In this document: positions 13,087 to 24,937 of the stretch, one piece after another
Layout of the letters: each line of letters starts with the position of its first letter
Numbering within the stretch: the first letter of the stretch is position 1
Sequence record: ON237674.1
Source of the DNA: Acinetobacter phage Arbor
Length of the DNA stretch: 45,041 nucleotides
Strand: one strand, 5' to 3'
The notes under the pieces: generated by a model
What the model saw: only the letters and a program-made list of their open reading frames with translations
Databases searched by the model: none
Told to the model about the DNA's origin: nothing
Position numbers and translations under genes: made by a program

Positions 13087-13539
13087 ATGTCTAACGTTTT
13101 CGTTTTCGATCCTGCTGCGTTTAAGCTTTCTTATCCGCAGTTTGCAAAGTTCACTAATGAACAGCTAACAAACTTCTTTGAGGAAGTAGAAAACACTATT
13201 GTTGATAACACTGAGTCATCTTGCTTTAGTTTAAAAGATCGCAAGAAGCGGTTTTATCTTTTAGTGGCTCATAACGCAGAATTGCAAAATAGGATCAATG
13301 ACGGAAACACTGGCTTGGTTGGTCGTATTAGCTCTGCTACAGAAGGTTCTGTATCTATTAGCACTGATTACTCTATGGGTAGCGGTGCTTTAGAGCAATG
13401 GCTTAAACAAACACCTTACGGTGCTAAGTTCTATGCGTTTACTGCGCCATATCGCACGGCATTGTGGGTAGCTGCTACTGCTCCTATGCCAGTTGAACGC
13501 ACTAAATGGCCTTATCCTTTTGGGTGGGGTAATTATTAG
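13087..13539 (+). CDS. putative head-tail connector / head completion protein
   Basis: 150 aa, position after the MCP. Confidence 0.4.
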   Translation: MSNVFVFDPAAFKLSYPQFAKFTNEQLTNFFEEVENTIVDNTESSCFSLKDRKKRFYLLVAHNAELQNRINDGNTGLVGRISSATEGSVSISTDYSMGSGALEQWLKQTPYGAKFYAFTAPYRTALWVAATAPMPVERTKWPYPFGWGNY

Positions 13540-13643
13540 GAGATATTCATGAAAGAAGGTTATGGATTGGGTAAAGACGGCTATGGTCTTGGCTCAGAAG
13601 GCTGGGACTTTTAACCCATATCAAAAATATTGATCTCACATTT

Positions 13644-13670
13644 AAACCCTGTCGATTGACGGGGTTTTTA
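13644..13670. terminator. bidirectional terminator between convergent genes
   Basis: CCCTGTCGATTGACGGGG hairpin, A-run upstream and T-run downstream. Confidence 0.5.
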
Positions 13671-13716
13671 TTATGCAAACTTATTGCGAAGTTAAAGCAA
13701 AACAAAACCGAATGGG

Positions 13717-13941
13717 TTATTTTTGGGTTATCAAGAAGACTTTAGCCAATTGAGTTCCGAGCGGATTTGCGCGCATCGTGTTGTAAATCAGCCCGCATCG
13801 TCCATCAAAGATAAATCTAATTGATTCGCCTTTGTTCTTGATGGCAACAATGTCTGCACCCTTGTCTATTAGCCAATTTTCAAAGTCACGAAGTTGTCGA
13901 GTTTCAAGATTCAATTTCGGACTTTTTTGTTTTTTAGCCAT
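13717..13941 (-). CDS. moron: hypothetical 74-aa protein on the opposite strand
   Basis: Only minus-strand gene in the structural block. Basic N-terminus MAKKQKSPK. Confidence 0.5.
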   Translation of the reverse strand: MAKKQKSPKLNLETRQLRDFENWLIDKGADIVAIKNKGESIRFIFDGRCGLIYNTMRANPLGTQLAKVFLITQK

Positions 13942-14517
13942 GATTTACCCCTAAATCTTATTTAAGTTAACTAATACTATATAGATATATGCTATTGGTG
14001 AGATTCTGAGAGAAAAAGTTAATATTCATCCTAAGACAGTCTTTTTTAAAAAAACTATCTTGAACATTAACTTTATCAAAGTATGCTACTGGAGCCGACC
14101 CTTCGATTAAAGTCCGAAATCATTGTTAAACATATTTCGGTTGCTAGTTACCCTGATTTAACTCAGTCCAAGCTCTGCCTAGCACGCCATTTCTGACTAT
14201 TCCAACAGATTCCTGTTTGCTTGACCCTCACAGTACAGGATTGTTTAAGCTATGCGCTGCCGTTATAGTTGTTCCGACCACATAACCGATTTACTTAGTT
14301 TCACACTGGTTGTAAGTAACAGATAAATTATAGCATCTGATCAAAAATCGTTAAGTGAAAATAATTCATCTTCGATTTCATTTATTGTTAATTCATTCAT
14401 CTATGCAAATTTTGCATAATTAGAATTATTCATCAAATTTAAATAAAGTGAATTTTATTCATGTTTATGCATTGGTAGTGAATGGTGCTAAACTTAGCAA
14501 AAGTGGAGGGCTACTCA

Positions 14518-14954
14518 TGACAATAAAACGCACAGGCTCACTAGACCAAGCATTAAACCGCTTGATTTCTAGTAATGATCAGTATGTAAAGGCTGGTGTA
14601 TTGGAAGGGTCTAAATATCCAGATGGCACTAGCGTTGCTACTGTGGCTTATAAGAACGAATACGGATTTAAGAACATTCCTAGTCGCCCATTTATGAGAA
14701 CCACTGTAAGAGAGCAAAAGGATGCTTGGGTAGAGCTAACCAAAAAAGGTATTAAAGCTGGATACACACTAGAGCATACACTTAATTTGGTTGGGTTGAG
14801 TATGCAGAATGAGATTCAGTATTCTATTATGATATGGAGTGAGCCACCAAACGCACCAGCAACTATTGCAGCCAAAGGATTTGACGCGCCATTAAGGGAT
14901 AGTTTGCTCATGCATGACAGCATTAAATACGAAGTTGTTGAGGGTAAACTATGA
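14518..14954 (+). CDS. tail/neck protein (hypothetical)
   Basis: SD GGAGGG before ATG 14518. The ORF-track start at 14448 is probably too early. Confidence 0.45.
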
Positions 14955-23756: not shown

Positions 23757-24937
23757 TCCCAAAGATAGAAATAACTGATGTCGGATATTCAGTTCCCGAC
23801 ACTGAAAGCATTAACAATGGCACATGGAGCATGATTGATGACTCTTTCGGGGGTAATGTTTCTCGTGTTCAAGGTTCGCCACAGTATCAATTAAATACTT
23901 CATGGACGGCAGTCATTAAAGATTGCTACGACAAGCTTGTTTATCTAGCTAACCAATATGATCCGCGTTATGCACAAGGTATTTTTCAAGATGCTATTGG
24001 TGAACTTTATTTTTTAACAAGAAAGCTTGCTACTCGTTCACAATGCCCTGTGGTTTTTGAGGGTTTGTCTGGCGCTCCTATTCCAGAAGGATTTGCCGTT
24101 CAAGATTTGTCTGGTCGAACTTGGCGAACCAATGGAACGTACAATATTGGCTCAAACGGAAAAGTGACGATTACAGTAACTTGTGATGAGGCTGGAGCTA
24201 TTGAAGCGCTACCAAACTCTATTGTTGTCATTCCCACATCTATTAATGGTCTTGATCGTGTTTACAATGAAGATAGCGCGGTGATGGGATATGATGAAGA
24301 AAGTCGTGTTGATTTTGAGGTTCGCCGAAAAGAGTCTGTAGCAATTAATTCTAAAATGACTGATTCAGCCACACTTGGCGCAGTTTTGGCGGTTCGTGAT
24401 GTTGTAGATGCTTATGTAATCTCAAATCCAACTGATGCAACTGTAACAGTAGGCTCAACAAATTATCCGTTAATCCGAAATTCTATCTGTGTTTCTGTTG
24501 TTGGTGGTAATGATTATGATGTAGCAAAAGCCGCTTTTATTAAAGCTGGCACTGGCTGCTCATGGAATGGTAACACAAACGTAACAGTAATTGCTGAAGA
24601 CTATCCATCTAATCCTCCTAAATATCCTATTAAAATTTTACGCCCTGCCTTTCTTGATATTTGGGTAAAAGTTATTGTTAAAGATAAAGATGCGATTTCT
24701 TACACTATTAAACAAGAAGTTATTAATCATATTCTGACTAGCGCTGCTTCTGGTGAAAATAAGGTTCGTATTGGAAAAGATTTTATACCAGCTGATTATA
24801 TTTGCGGCATGCCAAAAATTGGATTAAAGGGAATTGTAGCAAGCACAGATAATGCCACATGGGTTAATGAAATCCCTGTTGGCATTGATCAATACCCATC
24901 TTTAAATTCTTTTAGAATTTCTATTGAGGAAAGCTAA
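23753..24937 (+). CDS. baseplate J-like protein
   Basis: 394 aa. ATGA-coupled. Position between the W-like and I-like genes. Confidence 0.55.
   Translation: MIPKIEITDVGYSVPDTESINNGTWSMIDDSFGGNVSRVQGSPQYQLNTSWTAVIKDCYDKLVYLANQYDPRYAQGIFQDAIGELYFLTRKLATRSQCPVVFEGLSGAPIPEGFAVQDLSGRTWRTNGTYNIGSNGKVTITVTCDEAGAIEALPNSIVVIPTSINGLDRVYNEDSAVMGYDEESRVDFEVRRKESVAINSKMTDSATLGAVLAVRDVVDAYVISNPTDATVTVGSTNYPLIRNSICVSVVGGNDYDVAKAAFIKAGTGCSWNGNTNVTVIAEDYPSNPPKYPIKILRPAFLDIWVKVIVKDKDAISYTIKQEVINHILTSAASGENKVRIGKDFIPADYICGMPKIGLKGIVASTDNATWVNEIPVGIDQYPSLNSFRISIEES

What the first reader, a model, noticed from the sequence alone, without database searches (positions are those of the whole stretch)
13540..14517. 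Island inside the structural module: antisense moron plus about 500 bp of ORF-free, hairpin-rich, higher-GC sequence (candidate structured ncRNA)
A bidirectional terminator (13644..13670) lies between the head-completion and neck genes. It is followed by a single minus-strand 74-aa gene (13717..13941) and then by about 500 bp (13942..14447) with no ORF of 60 aa or more in any frame. In a genome otherwise packed end-to-end with ATGA-coupled genes this is striking. The central portion (about 14040..14330) is noticeably GC-richer than the flanks. It contains clear stem-loops, for example CCGAAAT...ATTTCGG at 14113..14145 and ATTCCTGT...ACAGGATT around 14230..14270. The segment 14340..14460 is an AT-rich array of TTCAT/AATTCAT repeats with a TGCAAATTTTGCA palindrome, reading like a regulated promoter for the downstream tail genes. 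Candidates are an sRNA, a riboregulator, a promoter island, or an RNA-based anti-defense element with its protein partner.
Basis: seen in the sequence. Interest (0 to 1): 0.7.

Follow-up and report, generated by a model that had tools for sequence, protein, structure and literature searches.

The report
Phage-borne large structured RNA gene
The gene-free stretch is a real gene for a roughly 335-base folded RNA on the opposite strand of an Acinetobacter phage, and it belongs to a widespread, almost undescribed RNA class carried by phages and other mobile DNA, whose function is still unknown.

Summary
The window is an Obolenskvirus (Acinetobacter phage).

A 739-bp accessory island (13684..14422) sits between the head-operon terminator and the tail-operon promoter. 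Some relatives lack it, and it is flanked by a roughly 14-bp imperfect direct repeat.

It holds one leftward unit:
- phased GATGAAT repeats and a palindrome;
- a conserved extended -10 promoter;
- a roughly 336-nt RNA (14320..13985);
- a 74-aa gene.

The RNA is 95% identical between phages whose adjacent ORF third positions are about 50% identical. Thirteen base pairs show compensatory changes, and 99% of cells are paired.

Its 5' hairpins resemble Rfam RF02932 (Betaproteobacteria-1) below threshold. A model built only from alphaproteobacterial 3' domains finds it at E=4e-4.

The class lies in prophages and integrative elements. It carries two identical, lineage-specific 9-12-nt single-stranded segments.

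The 74-aa protein has the fold of the RNase HIII hybrid-binding N-domain.

Function is untested. I favour a trans-acting RNA or RNP over a gene-specific leader.

The parts
13644..13672 (+). Backbone intrinsic terminator of the head operon. It is not part of the island and is possibly used in reverse by the leftward unit.
   Evidence: The scan finds a 10-pair stem followed by a T-run. An identical sequence is present in the island-less phage QH4.
13670..13683 (.). Left copy of the imperfect direct repeat ATTATGCAAACTTA at the insertion junction.
   Evidence: Alignment of both junctions with the empty site in QH4, which reads ATTATGCATACTTA once.
13684..14422 (-). Accessory island of 739 bp, containing the promoter region, the RNA gene and the 74-aa gene.
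   Evidence: It is absent from QH4 (L007), and the junctions are clean. The noncoding part is present in 46 phage records.
13695..13716 (-). Weak hairpin plus U-run immediately after the stop codon (AACCCAUUCGGUUUUGUUUUG). It is a possible terminator of the leftward unit.
   Evidence: Read directly from the sequence. It is conserved in relatives but falls below the terminator scan's threshold.
13717..13941 (-). 74-aa protein gene with a fold like the RNase HIII N-domain (TBP-like): helix, three strands, helix.
13948..13952 (-). Shine-Dalgarno sequence (AGGGG) of the 74-aa gene.
   Evidence: Read from the sequence, 6 nt upstream of the ATG. It is conserved as GGGG or GAGG in relatives.
13985..14320 (-). 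Conserved structured RNA of about 336 nt. Its 5' end is predicted and its 3' end is unknown. It may continue as the leader of the 74-aa mRNA.
   Evidence: It is 95% identical where ORF third positions are about 50% identical. Thirteen pairs covary. Rfam RF02932 matches 14182..14288 below threshold. The alphaproteobacterial 3'-domain model matches 13985..14114 at E=3.7e-4.
14292..14318 (-). Helix P0, the hairpin at the 5' end of the RNA.
   Evidence: The A-U pair changes to G-C in 5 of 8 sequences (columns 4 and 28).
14248..14287 (-). Helix H1, with the invariant loop UGGUCGG..ACGGCAGCG.
   Evidence: The stem is fully different yet still complementary in 13 lineages.
14211..14240 (-). Helix H2, with the loop ACUGUGAGGGU.
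   Evidence: The stems differ in sequence across the lineages aligned, and complementarity was judged by eye.
14186..14197 (-). Helix H3 (GUCA GAAA UGGC).
   Evidence: It is invariant in the phage set, so there is no covariation evidence for it there.
14114..14184 (-). Central module of helices Pd (14142..14147 with 14179..14184), Pa (14153..14156 with 14163..14166) and Pb (14114..14120 with 14134..14140). It exists in at least three compensated 'alleles'.
   Evidence: Pairs with changes on both sides number 4 in Pd, 3 in Pa and 4 in Pb, and 100% of cells are paired.
14079..14101 (-). Helix Pc. Its loop displays GGCUCC plus twin segment R1 (AGUAGCAUAC; plus-strand copy at 14081..14092).
14012..14077 (-). 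Long AU-rich hairpin with a UUAGGA bulge, followed by UUUUUCUCUC.
   Evidence: with 25 pairs that are nearly invariant. Two GenBank records start inside it.
13987..14004 (-). CUCACC plus twin segment R2 (AAUAGCAUAU).
14327..14354 (-). Predicted sigma-70 promoter: TTAACG, 16 nt, TG-n-TATAAT. The extended -10 lies at 14327..14335.
   Evidence: The scan scores it 10 of 12 with a TG. TGnTATAAT is kept in all 9 relatives although the DNA upstream is swapped.
14362..14434 (-). Three phased GATGAATNA repeats (14362, 14393, 14426) and the palindrome TATGCAAATTTTGCATA (14402..14418). These are candidate regulator or iteron sites.
   Evidence: Relatives carry 1-3 TATGCA-N5/6-TGCATA copies instead.
14409..14422 (.). 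Right copy of the junction repeat ATTTTGCATAATTA.
14423..14516 (+). Backbone intergenic region upstream of the Neck1/tail-completion gene. It is the probable tail-operon promoter region and is not part of the island.
   Evidence: It is shared with the island-less phages QH4 and XC1. The downstream gene matches phrog_222.

Best explanation
The region is a compact accessory ('moron') cassette inserted between the head-operon terminator and the tail-operon promoter of an Obolenskvirus. It is transcribed leftward from its own extended -10 promoter.

Its main product is a conserved RNA of about 336 nt with a complex fold. In 5'-to-3' order the RNA contains:
- helix P0;
- three hairpins with invariant loops (H1-H3);
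- a three-helix central module (Pd, Pa, Pb);
- a hairpin (Pc) that displays GGCUCC plus a 10-nt segment, R1;
- a long hairpin;
- CUCACC plus a near-identical segment, R2.

The RNA is a divergent member of a widespread RNA class found in prophages and integrative elements of Alpha- and Betaproteobacteria. Only the 5' third of that class has been catalogued, as the orphan Rfam motif RF02932.

I think the RNA most likely acts in trans, as a stable scaffold. On this view it presents its two identical single-stranded 'twin' segments to one common nucleic-acid partner, acting as a guide or a decoy. The co-transcribed 74-aa protein, a stand-alone copy of the fold RNase HIII uses to grip RNA/DNA hybrids, would bind the RNA or the duplex it forms.

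**Shown here:**
- the island and its junctions;
- the conserved promoter motif;
- strong purifying selection on the RNA;
- the covariation-supported structure and the strand assignment;
- homology of both RNA halves to bacterial mobile-element RNAs;
- the twin segments;
- the protein fold.

**Inferred, not shown:**
- that the RNA is transcribed, and where its ends are;
- trans action;
- pairing by the twin segments;
- any contact between the protein and the RNA.

**My probabilities:**
- real functional RNA on the minus strand: about 0.9;
- member of the wider class: about 0.8;
- trans-acting guide, decoy or RNP mechanism: about 0.35.
For: **Island**
- The flanks are 100% identical to AbP2, Abp9 and MRABphi22.
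- QH4 shows the empty site, and the window's two junctions repeat a 14-mer.

**Promoter**
- The scan finds TTAACG-16-TGcTATAAT.
- The TGnTATAAT motif is invariant in 9 relatives. Sequence conservation begins 8-9 nt downstream of it, exactly where helix P0 starts.

**Selection**
- RNA identity is 0.95 against 0.49-0.52 at ORF third positions for phiAC-1, L010 and L011.

**Structure**
- Of 69 pairs, 99.2% of cells are paired and 13 pairs show changes on both sides.
- Sliding controls give 0-2 such pairs, and at most 1 of 500 shuffles reaches the observed value.
- Ten pairs are G-U in the commonest state. These would be A-C mismatches on the plus strand, which assigns the structure to the minus strand.

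**Homology**
- RF02932 aligns over its full length to 14288..14182 at 25.9 bits, E 0.013.
- Ten bona fide RF02932 loci carry the same downstream GGCUCC-R1, hairpin, CACC-R2 arrangement.
- A covariance model built only from 8 alphaproteobacterial 3' domains hits 14114..13985 on the minus strand over its full length at E 3.7e-4. This is the only hit in the window.
- My 5'-domain model hits Bacteroidota, alpha and beta loci.

**Twin segments**
- In 8 of 11 lineages the 12-mer has exactly one other same-sense copy in 8 kb.
- Its sequence differs between lineages.

**Not a gene-specific leader**
- The ORFs downstream of class members are unrelated or absent.
- Distant homologues of the 74-aa protein have no upstream RNA.

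**Protein**
- The model has pLDDT 91.
- The fold also occurs fused to an HNH nuclease in a phage protein.
- The RNase H3 N-domain has the same helix, three-strand, helix topology and binds only RNA/DNA hybrids (PMC4132731).
Against: - No expression data exist. I found no transcriptome study for this genus, so the promoter, the RNA ends and the RNA's stability are all predictions.
- The RF02932 score is half the gathering threshold. The reciprocal 5'-domain search is partly circular, because the loci were retrieved using a loop-motif pattern.
- No partner complementary to the twin segments was found within the RNA, within the loci or in the phage genome.
- Within the phage family the twin segments never vary, so they give no covariation evidence there.
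- The RNA and the protein do not co-occur outside this phage group, which weakens the RNP idea.
- The protein's similarity to the RNase HIII N-domain is structural only. There is no sequence-level hit.
- The phage comparison set is small: 9 sequences falling into roughly 4-5 lineages.
Confidence: 0.5

Rival explanations
1. The RNA is a cis-acting 5' leader, such as an attenuator, a riboswitch-like sensor or an antitermination element. It would control read-through and translation of the 74-aa gene. The long hairpin plus U-run would act as a conditional terminator, with R1 and R2 as alternative pairing partners.
For: - The RNA lies directly upstream of the ORF and is co-oriented with it, and no strong terminator separates them.
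- The long hairpin is followed by UUUUUCUCUC.
- Several class members are followed by small ORFs.
- In the Burkholderia-type members R1 pairs with a neighbouring segment that R2 could also pair with.
Against: - Downstream genes differ completely between class members, and some have no downstream ORF.
- In bacterial members the hairpin is not followed by a U-run.
- No conserved partner for alternative pairing with R1 or R2 was found.
- The RNA is far better conserved than the gene it would regulate.
- No riboswitch family matches.
Confidence: 0.2
2. The island is a replication-related module. The RNA would form an R-loop or a primer next to iteron-like repeats, and the 74-aa hybrid-binding protein would stabilise or protect the RNA/DNA hybrid. 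This would resemble, in outline, ColE1 RNA II with Rom or the T4 R-loop origins.
For: - The protein's fold matches the only small domains known to bind RNA/DNA hybrids specifically.
- Three GATGAATNA repeats are phased at 31-33 bp, with a palindrome, in an AT-rich stretch next to the RNA promoter.
- Tandem iteron-like repeats follow the RNA in L102 (18 bp, at least 8 copies) and in L145.
- Class members sit next to helicase, Toprim primase and DUF7146 genes.
- Homologues of the protein lie among RecT, exonuclease and DUF1376 genes.
Against: - There is no GC-skew switch at 14 kb.
- The island is dispensable, since relatives lack it, so it cannot be the phage's essential origin.
- The repeats are replaced by other motifs in relatives that have the same RNA.
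- The protein is not a Rom-like helical bundle.
- A complex conserved RNA fold is not needed for R-loop priming.
Confidence: 0.12
3. The cassette is an RNA-protein conflict system, either a toxin-antitoxin pair of type III style or an anti-defence RNP. The RNA would neutralise or partner the small protein, or act as a decoy for a host defence nuclease.
For: - The order promoter, RNA, hairpin, small ORF resembles type III TA loci (established knowledge of ToxIN; layout seen).
- The location is moron-like and the cassette is variably present.
Against: - There are no tandem repeats in the RNA.
- PADLOC, Pfam and NCBIfam give no hit for the protein.
- RNA and protein do not co-occur elsewhere.
Confidence: 0.1
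4. The region is merely a regulated promoter island, or spacer DNA, for the downstream tail genes, and the hairpins arise by chance. A variant of this rival is that the region encodes a small protein such as the 37-aa plus-strand ORF.
For: - The backbone segment 14423..14516 is shared with island-less phages and precedes the Neck1 gene.
- The single-sequence fold z-scores are weak.
- The 37-aa ORF is open in 8 of 9 relatives.
Against: - The 336-nt core is under much stronger constraint than the neighbouring coding DNA.
- It has 13 compensated pairs.
- It matches RNA models built from unrelated bacteria.
- The 37-aa ORF changes 14 of 37 residues between phages, with the changes clustered in the helices. 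It is lost in L012 and has no Shine-Dalgarno sequence.
Confidence: 0.04

Closest known systems
Rfam RF02932, the Betaproteobacteria-1 RNA motif (an orphan candidate sRNA found by comparative genomics; function unknown)
   Same: - Three hairpins occur in the same order.
- The loop sequences are the same: UGGUCGG..ACGGCAGCG, ACUGUGRG and GAAA.
- The model aligns over its full length, positions 1-120.
- Bona fide RF02932 loci continue into the same GGCUCC-R1, hairpin, CACC-R2 arrangement as the phage RNA.
   Different: - The score is 25.9 bits against a gathering threshold of 49.4.
- The host is a phage of a gammaproteobacterium, and the sequence is AT-rich.
- The phage RNA has an extra 5' hairpin (P0), a 70-nt three-helix insert, and a much longer hairpin between the twin segments.
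- The Rfam model covers only about one third of the RNA.
Large mobile-element-associated structured RNAs of unknown function (ROOL, GOLLD, HEARO; Weinberg et al. 2017, PMC5737381)
   Same: - It is a long, intricately folded, highly conserved RNA.
- It is found in phages, in prophages and next to integrases and tRNA genes.
- It has no obvious cis target.
   Different: - None of those families matches the sequence or structure.
- At about 336 nt it is smaller.
- It carries the twin-segment feature, which to my knowledge is not described for those RNAs.
Phage P1/P7 c4 and P4 CI immunity RNAs (Rfam C4, RF01695)
   Same: - It is a leader-encoded RNA in phages and satellites.
- It contains short direct repeats whose sequence is specific to each lineage.
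- Some class members lie between alpA/int genes and primase genes.
   Different: - In c4 and CI the repeats are targets of a complementary loop in the same RNA. No such complement exists here.
- There is no Rfam C4 hit.
- This RNA is 4-5 times larger.
IS110/IS1111 bridge or seek RNAs (two programmable loops in one mobile-element RNA)
   Same: - It is a structured RNA encoded by a mobile element.
- It has two short variable 'specificity' segments held on a conserved scaffold.
   Different: - There is no IS110-type recombinase in the island or next to class members. The neighbours are tyrosine or serine recombinases or primases.
- The two segments are identical to each other. They do not match a donor and a target.
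- No similarity in sequence or structure was tested or seen.
RNase HIII N-terminal substrate-binding domain (TBP-like; PDB 4py5; PMC4132731), for the 74-aa protein
   Same: - It is about 70 residues, with a three-stranded antiparallel sheet flanked in sequence by two helices.
   Different: - It stands alone, with no catalytic domain.
- There is no detectable sequence similarity.
- Hybrid binding has not been tested.
- The family is confined to Acinetobacter phages and prophages.

Membership tests
Rfam RF02932 Betaproteobacteria-1 RNA | The covariance-model score reaches the curated gathering threshold of 49.4 bits. | tested here: not met
   The score is 25.9 bits, E 0.013, in a 1.1-kb search. 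The whole-window search at gathering level gave no hit.
Rfam RF02932 Betaproteobacteria-1 RNA | Three hairpins occur in order, with the conserved loop nucleotides GGuCGG..ACggCAGC and CUGuGGG. | tested here: met
   The model aligns over its full length with all three stems paired and the loop motifs matched.
Rfam RF02932 Betaproteobacteria-1 RNA | The flanking architecture is the same as at bona fide members. | tested here: met
   Ten loci scoring 64-108 bits show GGCUCC-R1, a hairpin and CACC-R2 downstream, as in the phage.
Rfam RF02932 Betaproteobacteria-1 RNA | It occurs in Betaproteobacteria. | tested here: not met
   The window is an Acinetobacter (Gammaproteobacteria) phage of the genus Obolenskvirus.
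Wider mobile-element RNA class (defined here: RF02932-like 5' domain plus twin-segment 3' domain) | The 3' domain is recognised by a model built without any phage sequence. | tested here: met
   Model R2, built from 8 alphaproteobacterial sequences, hits window 14114..13985 on the minus strand over positions 1-121 at 21.7 bits, E 3.7e-4. It also hits the same place in 4 related phages.
Wider mobile-element RNA class (defined here) | Two near-identical same-sense segments of 9-12 nt follow the GGCUCC and CUCACC anchors, 48-96 nt apart. | tested here: met
   In the window, R1 reads CCAGTAGCATAC and R2 reads CCAATAGCATAT, 94 nt apart. The same arrangement appears in at least 13 bacterial loci with different sequences.
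Type III toxin-antitoxin (ToxIN, CptIN or TenpIN type) | The RNA antitoxin is made of tandem direct repeats upstream of the toxin gene. | tested here: not met
   Tandem Repeats Finder finds nothing in 13500..14600, even at a minimum score of 30.
Type III toxin-antitoxin (ToxIN, CptIN or TenpIN type) | The toxin belongs to a known endoribonuclease family. | tested here: not met
   Pfam, PADLOC and NCBIfam give no hit.
C4 / P4 CI immunity RNA | A loop in the RNA is complementary to the flanking direct repeats. | tested here: not met
   No consistently placed complement of at least 6 nt was found in 9 lineages. There is no RF01695 hit.
tRNA, tmRNA or other curated RNA families, including riboswitches and ribozymes | ARAGORN or an Rfam model detects it at threshold. 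| tested here: not met
   ARAGORN finds 0 genes. Rfam gives 0 gathering-level hits in 45 kb.
RNase HIII N-domain / TBP-like fold (74-aa protein) | The fold is a helix, a three-stranded antiparallel sheet and a second helix, in about 70 residues. | tested here: met
RNase HIII N-domain / TBP-like fold (74-aa protein) | It binds RNA/DNA hybrids specifically. | not testable with these tools
   This needs EMSA with hybrid, dsRNA and dsDNA substrates and with the island RNA.
HicA toxin (dsRBD-like fold) | It matches the HicA_toxin profile and shows significant fold similarity. | tested here: not met

The most novel reading that the evidence does not exclude
The RNA may be the founding phage example of a new kind of twin-guide RNA in mobile elements. 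In this reading, a rigid scaffold holds two identical, lineage-programmable 10-12-nt single strands. These pair with two copies of one DNA or RNA sequence, for example repeated origin or iteron sites, or the shared core of two recombination sites. The pairing would bring those two sites together or prime synthesis. In this phage, a stand-alone RNA/DNA-hybrid-binding protein would stabilise the resulting hybrids.
Probability: 0.12. Interest if true: 0.9.

Novelty: new variant of a known kind. Interest (0 to 1): 0.7.

Why it matters
Obolenskviruses such as AP22, AB1 and AbP2 infect Acinetobacter baumannii, and many of the related records come from hospital or medical sewage. About two thirds of the matching records in the phage collection carry this cassette (46 of 70), and in every record inspected the RNA itself is unannotated. 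In several records the ORF is mislabelled 'ribonuclease H', and the neighbouring neck gene 'RNA polymerase'.

The RNA is better conserved than the adjacent 74-aa gene. That implies a selected function in infection, in competition between phages or in interaction with the host.

The finding also links an orphan Rfam motif from Betaproteobacteria to a much larger and longer RNA class. That class is spread over phages, prophages and integrative elements of at least two proteobacterial classes, and possibly Bacteroidota.

Finally, it exposes one testable feature of the class. Two identical, lineage-specific single-stranded segments sit on a conserved scaffold, which suggests sequence-programmed recognition. 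Large conserved RNAs of mobile elements have repeatedly turned out to be new biology, such as guide RNAs and RNA cages. A lytic phage that is easy to grow and edit would be a good system for finding out what this class does.

Tried and rejected
- **tRNA or tmRNA.** ARAGORN finds none.
- **Known Rfam family at threshold.** None in the whole window.
- **Tandem-repeat RNA (type III antitoxin).** None found.
- **Single-sequence folding.** z is only -1.6 on the minus strand and -0.7 on the plus strand, so I did not rely on it.
- **RNAalifold's long-range closing helices.** The proposed helices (A4 columns 39-44 with 164-169, and 128-132 with 159-163) never vary. They conflict with helix Pd, which has four compensated pairs, so I replaced them.
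- **Internal complement to the twin segments (P4 or P1 immunity style).** None is consistently placed.
- **Targets of the twin segments in the phage genome.** There is no enrichment beyond the locus itself.
- **Pairing between the -10 region and R2.** ATGCTAT in the -10 region pairs with R2 in this phage, but not in relatives whose -10 reads TGGTATAAT or TGATATAAT. I treat this as coincidence.
- **Small-protein gene on the plus strand (37 aa).** The substitution pattern is non-coding and the ORF is lost in L012.
- **HicA or dsRBD idea for the 74-aa protein.** I raised this by eye, but it is not supported.
- **Long repetitive 'homologues' of the protein.** These are ankyrin repeats that share an LLxxGADV-like motif, so the hits are spurious.
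- **Defence-system membership.** There are no PADLOC hits.
- **Replication origin from GC skew.** There is no switch at 14 kb.
- **RNA in bacterial genomes.** The phage-type sequence gave 0 hits in genome contigs and only one extra phage contig in the metagenomes.
- **Literature.** I found nothing on transcription of this genus or on the Betaproteobacteria-1 motif beyond its discovery paper, whose supplement is not held.
- **AFDB fold search.** The library was unavailable.
Full report
**1. Where we are**

The 981-bp query is 100% identical to Acinetobacter phages MRABphi22, AbP2, Abp9 and others. All 70 matching records are Acinetobacter phages, and those with a taxonomy line belong to the genus Obolenskvirus.

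The flanking genes are as follows:
- a DUF4054 / phrog_302 virion protein (13087..13539);
- a 21-aa glycine-rich ORF (13549..13614);
- the Neck1/tail-completion gene (ATG at 14517, phrog_222).

**2. The observation**

All listed features are present:
- The plus-strand terminator lies at 13644..13667.
- The minus-strand 74-aa ORF lies at 13717..13941.
- No ORF longer than 37 aa occurs in 13942..14447.
- The centre has GC 0.41-0.45, between AT-rich flanks of 0.23-0.32.
- The two named hairpins, the repeats and the palindrome are all there.

The genome mean GC is about 0.33-0.43, so the 'GC island' is mostly a contrast with its own AT-rich flanks.

**3. It is an inserted, dispensable island**

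The Obolenskvirus QH4 lacks both the gene and the ORF-free stretch. Aligning QH4 with the two ends of the window region gives exact junctions:
- QH4 reads ...GGGGTTTTTATTATGCATACTTAGAATTATTCAT...
- The window reads ...ATTATGCAAACTTA|TTGCGAAG... on the left.
- The window reads ...ATTTTGCATAATTA|GAATTATTCAT... on the right.

The island is therefore 13684..14422 (739 bp), and a roughly 14-bp sequence is present imperfectly at both ends.

The terminator, and the region 14423..14516 in front of the neck gene, are backbone sequence. The island thus sits exactly between one operon's terminator and the next operon's upstream region. This is the classical position of a moron.

The noncoding part is found in 46 phage records, against 70 that match the wider query.

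**4. The transcription unit is leftward**

The promoter scan finds TTAACG, 16 nt, TG-c-TATAAT on the minus strand at 14354..14327.

I aligned nine distinct relatives: AP22, phiAC-1, BUCT629, Scipio, Cato and three metagenomic or Logan contigs, with a fourth contig added later. The TGnTATAAT motif is invariant in all of them, while the DNA upstream of it has been exchanged for unrelated modules. Near-perfect conservation starts 8-9 nt downstream of the -10 element. That is exactly where a hairpin (P0) begins, and its A-U pair becomes G-C in five sequences.

BLAST shows the same breakpoint: several phages match only up to window position 14319.

Upstream of the promoter lie three GATGAATNA repeats, which are 3 of the 5 copies in 45 kb. 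They are on the minus strand, phased at 31 and 33 bp. The unique palindrome TATGCAAATTTTGCATA lies among them. Relatives carry one to three TATGCA-N5/6-TGCATA palindromes instead. These look like binding sites for a regulator, but that is inference.

**5. The ORF-free DNA is under stronger constraint than the gene next to it**

Against phiAC-1, L010 and L011:
- The RNA region is 0.95 identical.
- The 74-aa ORF is 0.74-0.76 identical overall.
- The ORF's third codon positions are 0.49-0.52 identical.

The differences that do occur in the RNA region are concentrated in paired positions.

**6. Structure**

I defined a manual structure of 69 pairs in nine helices and scored it on nine sequences.

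- 99.2% of cells are paired.
- 13 pairs have changes on both sides. Sliding the 3' partners by 1-3 columns gives 0-2 such pairs, and at most 1 of 500 column shuffles reaches the observed values.

The supported helices are:

| Helix | Window coordinates | Pairs with changes on both sides |
|---|---|---|
| Pd | 14142..14147 with 14179..14184 | 4 |
| Pa | 14153..14156 with 14163..14166 | 3 |
| Pb | 14114..14120 with 14134..14140 | 4 |
| Pc | 14079..14082 with 14098..14101 | 1 |
| H2 | 14211..14216 with 14235..14240 | 1 |
| P0 | 14292..14318 | 1 |

H1, H3 and the long hairpin hardly vary within the phages.

Ten pairs are G-U in their commonest state. These would be A-C mismatches on the other strand, so the folded molecule is the minus-strand transcript. 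It is not the plus strand and not a DNA cruciform.

The three central helices exist as at least three fully compensated 'alleles': the window type, the AP22/L088 type and the L012 type. These reassort independently of the ORF type. The loops of Pa (GUUAAAU) and Pb (UUUAACAA) are invariant and complementary to each other. That suggests a kissing interaction, which is inference and has no covariation support.

**7. A protein-coding alternative is unlikely**

The only sizeable ORF inside the RNA is 37 aa on the plus strand (14083..14196). Three observations argue against it:
- It changes 14 of 37 residues between the window and AP22, in clusters that coincide with the helices.
- It is lost in L012.
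- It has no Shine-Dalgarno sequence.

**8. Relatives outside the phage group**

At gathering thresholds Rfam finds nothing in the window. In a permissive search the best match is RF02932 (Betaproteobacteria-1). It aligns over its full length to 14288..14182 on the minus strand at 25.9 bits (gathering 49.4), E 0.013. All three hairpins and their loop motifs align.

I used the shared loop motifs as a pattern to fetch bacterial loci. Ten of the 16 betaproteobacterial loci are bona fide RF02932 members, scoring 64-108 bits. Reading on past the 120-nt Rfam model revealed that these RNAs continue. The continuation runs: GGCUCC plus a 9-12-nt segment R1, then a hairpin, then (C/U)CACC plus a near-identical segment R2. 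The phage RNA has the same arrangement:
- GGCUCC-AGUAGCAUAC;
- then a long hairpin;
- then CUCACC-AAUAGCAUAU.

The same architecture occurs in Alphaproteobacteria, including Kordiimonas, Methylocystis, Roseomonas, Neoroseomonas, Acidiphilium and several MAGs. These loci are not annotated by Rfam.

Three tests bear on homology.

*Reciprocal 5'-domain search.* My 5'-domain model built from the phages scores a Bacteroidota locus at 27.6 bits, and also alpha and beta loci. This test is partly circular, because the loci were selected with the loop motif.

*Independent 3'-domain search.* I built a model only from eight alphaproteobacterial 3' domains, which do not contain the retrieval pattern. It hits the window once, at 14114..13985 on the minus strand, over positions 1-121 at 21.7 bits, E 3.7e-4. 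It hits the homologous position in four other phages.

*Cross-lineage covariation.* H1 stems are completely different in sequence yet complementary in the 13 aligned lineages. H2 stems also differ in sequence, and I judged their complementarity by eye.

I conclude that the phage RNA is a divergent member of a class whose 5' third is RF02932. By Rfam's own criterion it is not a member of RF02932 itself.

**9. Context of the class**

Class members lie next to the following genes:
- a helicase and a Toprim primase (L098, L141);
- a DUF7146 protein, downstream of an int-alpA RNA (L121, which was only a weak hit of the 5'-domain model);
- a tyrosine integrase (L102);
- a large serine recombinase and a tRNA gene (L132, L137);
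- AAA_24 and DUF3871 genes (L101).

These are prophages or integrative elements. The ORFs downstream of the RNA are unrelated to each other or missing. Iteron-like tandem repeats follow the RNA in L102 and L145. The RNA, and not any neighbouring gene, is the conserved unit.

**10. The twin segments**

In 8 of 11 lineages the 12-mer 'CC plus R2' has exactly one other same-sense copy within the 8-kb locus, namely R1. It has no antisense copy. The sequence differs from lineage to lineage:
- AAGGGGCAUC;
- AAGGUCAG;
- AAGAGUAU;
- CAGUGACGA;
- CAGGCAAGA;
- CCGAGCA;
- UAGCAUA in the phage.

The two copies change together.

A single 8-of-10 match is unremarkable on its own (see the shuffles). Its recurrence at the same two anchors in many lineages is not. 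This is my estimate and was not formally computed.

In the supported structure R1 lies in the loop of Pc, and R2 follows the long hairpin. Both are therefore probably single-stranded. I found no complementary partner inside the RNAs, in the loci or in the phage genome. Two identical, co-evolving single strands on a conserved scaffold suggest recognition of one partner sequence in two copies. That is the basis of my preferred mechanism, and it is unproven.

**11. The 74-aa protein**

The protein belongs to a family of at least 108 small proteins from Acinetobacter phages and prophages. The family has no Pfam, NCBIfam or PADLOC assignment.

Distant members sit in early, recombination and replication regions of temperate phages, near Cro-like HTH, ANT, RecT, PDDEXK and DUF1376 genes and near the integrase. 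None of them has an upstream RNA.

With a 64-sequence alignment the model reaches pLDDT 91, with a helix, three-strand, helix topology. Structural comparisons gave:
- Next come the N-terminal domains of the RnlA and LsoA toxins, and the KA1 RNA-binding domains of METTL16 and TUT1.
- Among viral models, the fold also occurs fused to an HNH nuclease.

The RNase H3 paper describes the N-domain as about 70 residues, with a three-stranded sheet flanked by two helices. It is related to TBP, and in EMSA it binds RNA/DNA hybrid but not dsDNA or dsRNA (PMC4132731).

This fold similarity probably explains the 'ribonuclease H' label in some GenBank records. There is no catalytic domain, so that label is wrong. 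The protein is most likely a nucleic-acid-binding protein, possibly one that binds hybrids.

**12. Mechanism**

The established part is a promoter-proximal, strongly selected, structured minus-strand RNA of a mobile-element class, followed by a small gene with a nucleic-acid-binding fold.

*Trans-acting RNA or RNP using the twin segments (about 0.35).* I favour this for three reasons:
- The class is not tied to any downstream gene.
- The RNA is better conserved than its neighbour.
- The variable-but-twinned segments look like specificity determinants.

*Cis-acting leader or attenuator (about 0.2).* This is weakened by the lack of a U-run after the hairpin in bacterial members, and by the unrelated or absent downstream ORFs.

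*Origin or primer module (about 0.12).* This is suggested by the hybrid-binding fold, the phased repeats and the neighbouring iterons and primases. The island is dispensable, however, and GC skew is uninformative.

*Toxin-antitoxin or anti-defence RNP (about 0.1).*

*Promoter spacer or small peptide (about 0.04).*

**13. Limits**

- There are no expression data.
- The 3' end of the RNA is unknown. It may simply be the 5' part of the 74-aa mRNA, ending at the weak hairpin at 13695..13716 or at the backbone terminator.
- The phage alignment contains few independent lineages.
- E-values from my models are rough, because calibration was shortened.
- The proposed pairing between the H2 loop (GUGAG) and CUCAC, and the Pa-Pb kissing interaction, rest on invariant or nearly invariant bases.

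Noticed in passing
window 14012..14077 (long hairpin); records MN516421 and PP355976 (L008, L009): Two independent GenBank records of related phages, Bphi-R2919 and vB_AbaM_YNAF, begin at positions matching window 14073 and 14048. Both positions lie inside the same 66-bp hairpin of a 45-kb genome. This could be an assembly break at an inverted repeat, or a hint of a physical discontinuity or coverage anomaly there.
   Followed up: partly
window 13670..13683 and 14409..14422: The island is flanked by an imperfect 14-bp direct repeat, ATTATGCAAACTTA and ATTTTGCATAATTA. The empty site in QH4 has a single copy. The repeat overlaps the TATGCA half-site of the palindromic motif. This raises the question of how the island was inserted: by site-specific recombination, or by homology-driven exchange at a regulator site.
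   Followed up: partly
window 13549..13614 (+): A 21-aa glycine-rich ORF (MKEGYGLGKDGYGLGSEGWDF) follows the DUF4054 gene. Its C-terminus matches phrog_19915, which is annotated 'tape measure'. At this position AP22 has a 91-aa ORF, Scipio and Cato have 48-aa ORFs, and QH4 is 7 codons shorter than the window. The element looks like a repeat-length-variable small protein.
   Followed up: no
window 14114..14184 (-), compared with L002, L012 and L088: The central three-helix module of the RNA occurs in at least three fully compensated sequence variants. These are shuffled relative to the type of the adjacent ORF. AP22 has the window's protein but a different module, and L088 has AP22's module with a divergent protein. 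This suggests recombination or diversifying selection on the module.
   Followed up: partly
L102:2350-2498 and L145:~450-520: Iteron-like tandem repeats follow bacterial members of the RNA class directly. L102 has an 18-bp unit CCCACAAAATGGGGTGGC in at least 8 copies, and L145 has AGAGATTCA and AAAGAACAG repeats.
   Followed up: no
GenBank annotations at window 13717..13941 and 14448..14954: Several records call the 74-aa ORF 'ribonuclease H' and the Neck1/tail-completion gene 'putative RNA polymerase'. They also start the latter at GTG 14448. The SD-preceded ATG at 14517 looks like the better start. Both product names look wrong.
   Followed up: partly
L101, L132 and L137 (Bacteroidota loci): AT-rich Bacteroidota loci next to a serine recombinase and a tRNA gene, or next to AAA_24 and DUF3871 genes, carry the same H1 and H2 loop motifs and a P0-like hairpin. 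L101 scores 27.6 bits with the phage 5'-domain model. I could not find a clear twin-segment 3' domain in them. The class may extend beyond Proteobacteria in a modified form.
   Followed up: partly
window 23989..24000 (minus-strand sense): There is one extra same-sense near-copy of the twin 12-mer elsewhere in the phage genome (CCAATAGCATCT, 1 mismatch). It is probably chance.
   Followed up: no
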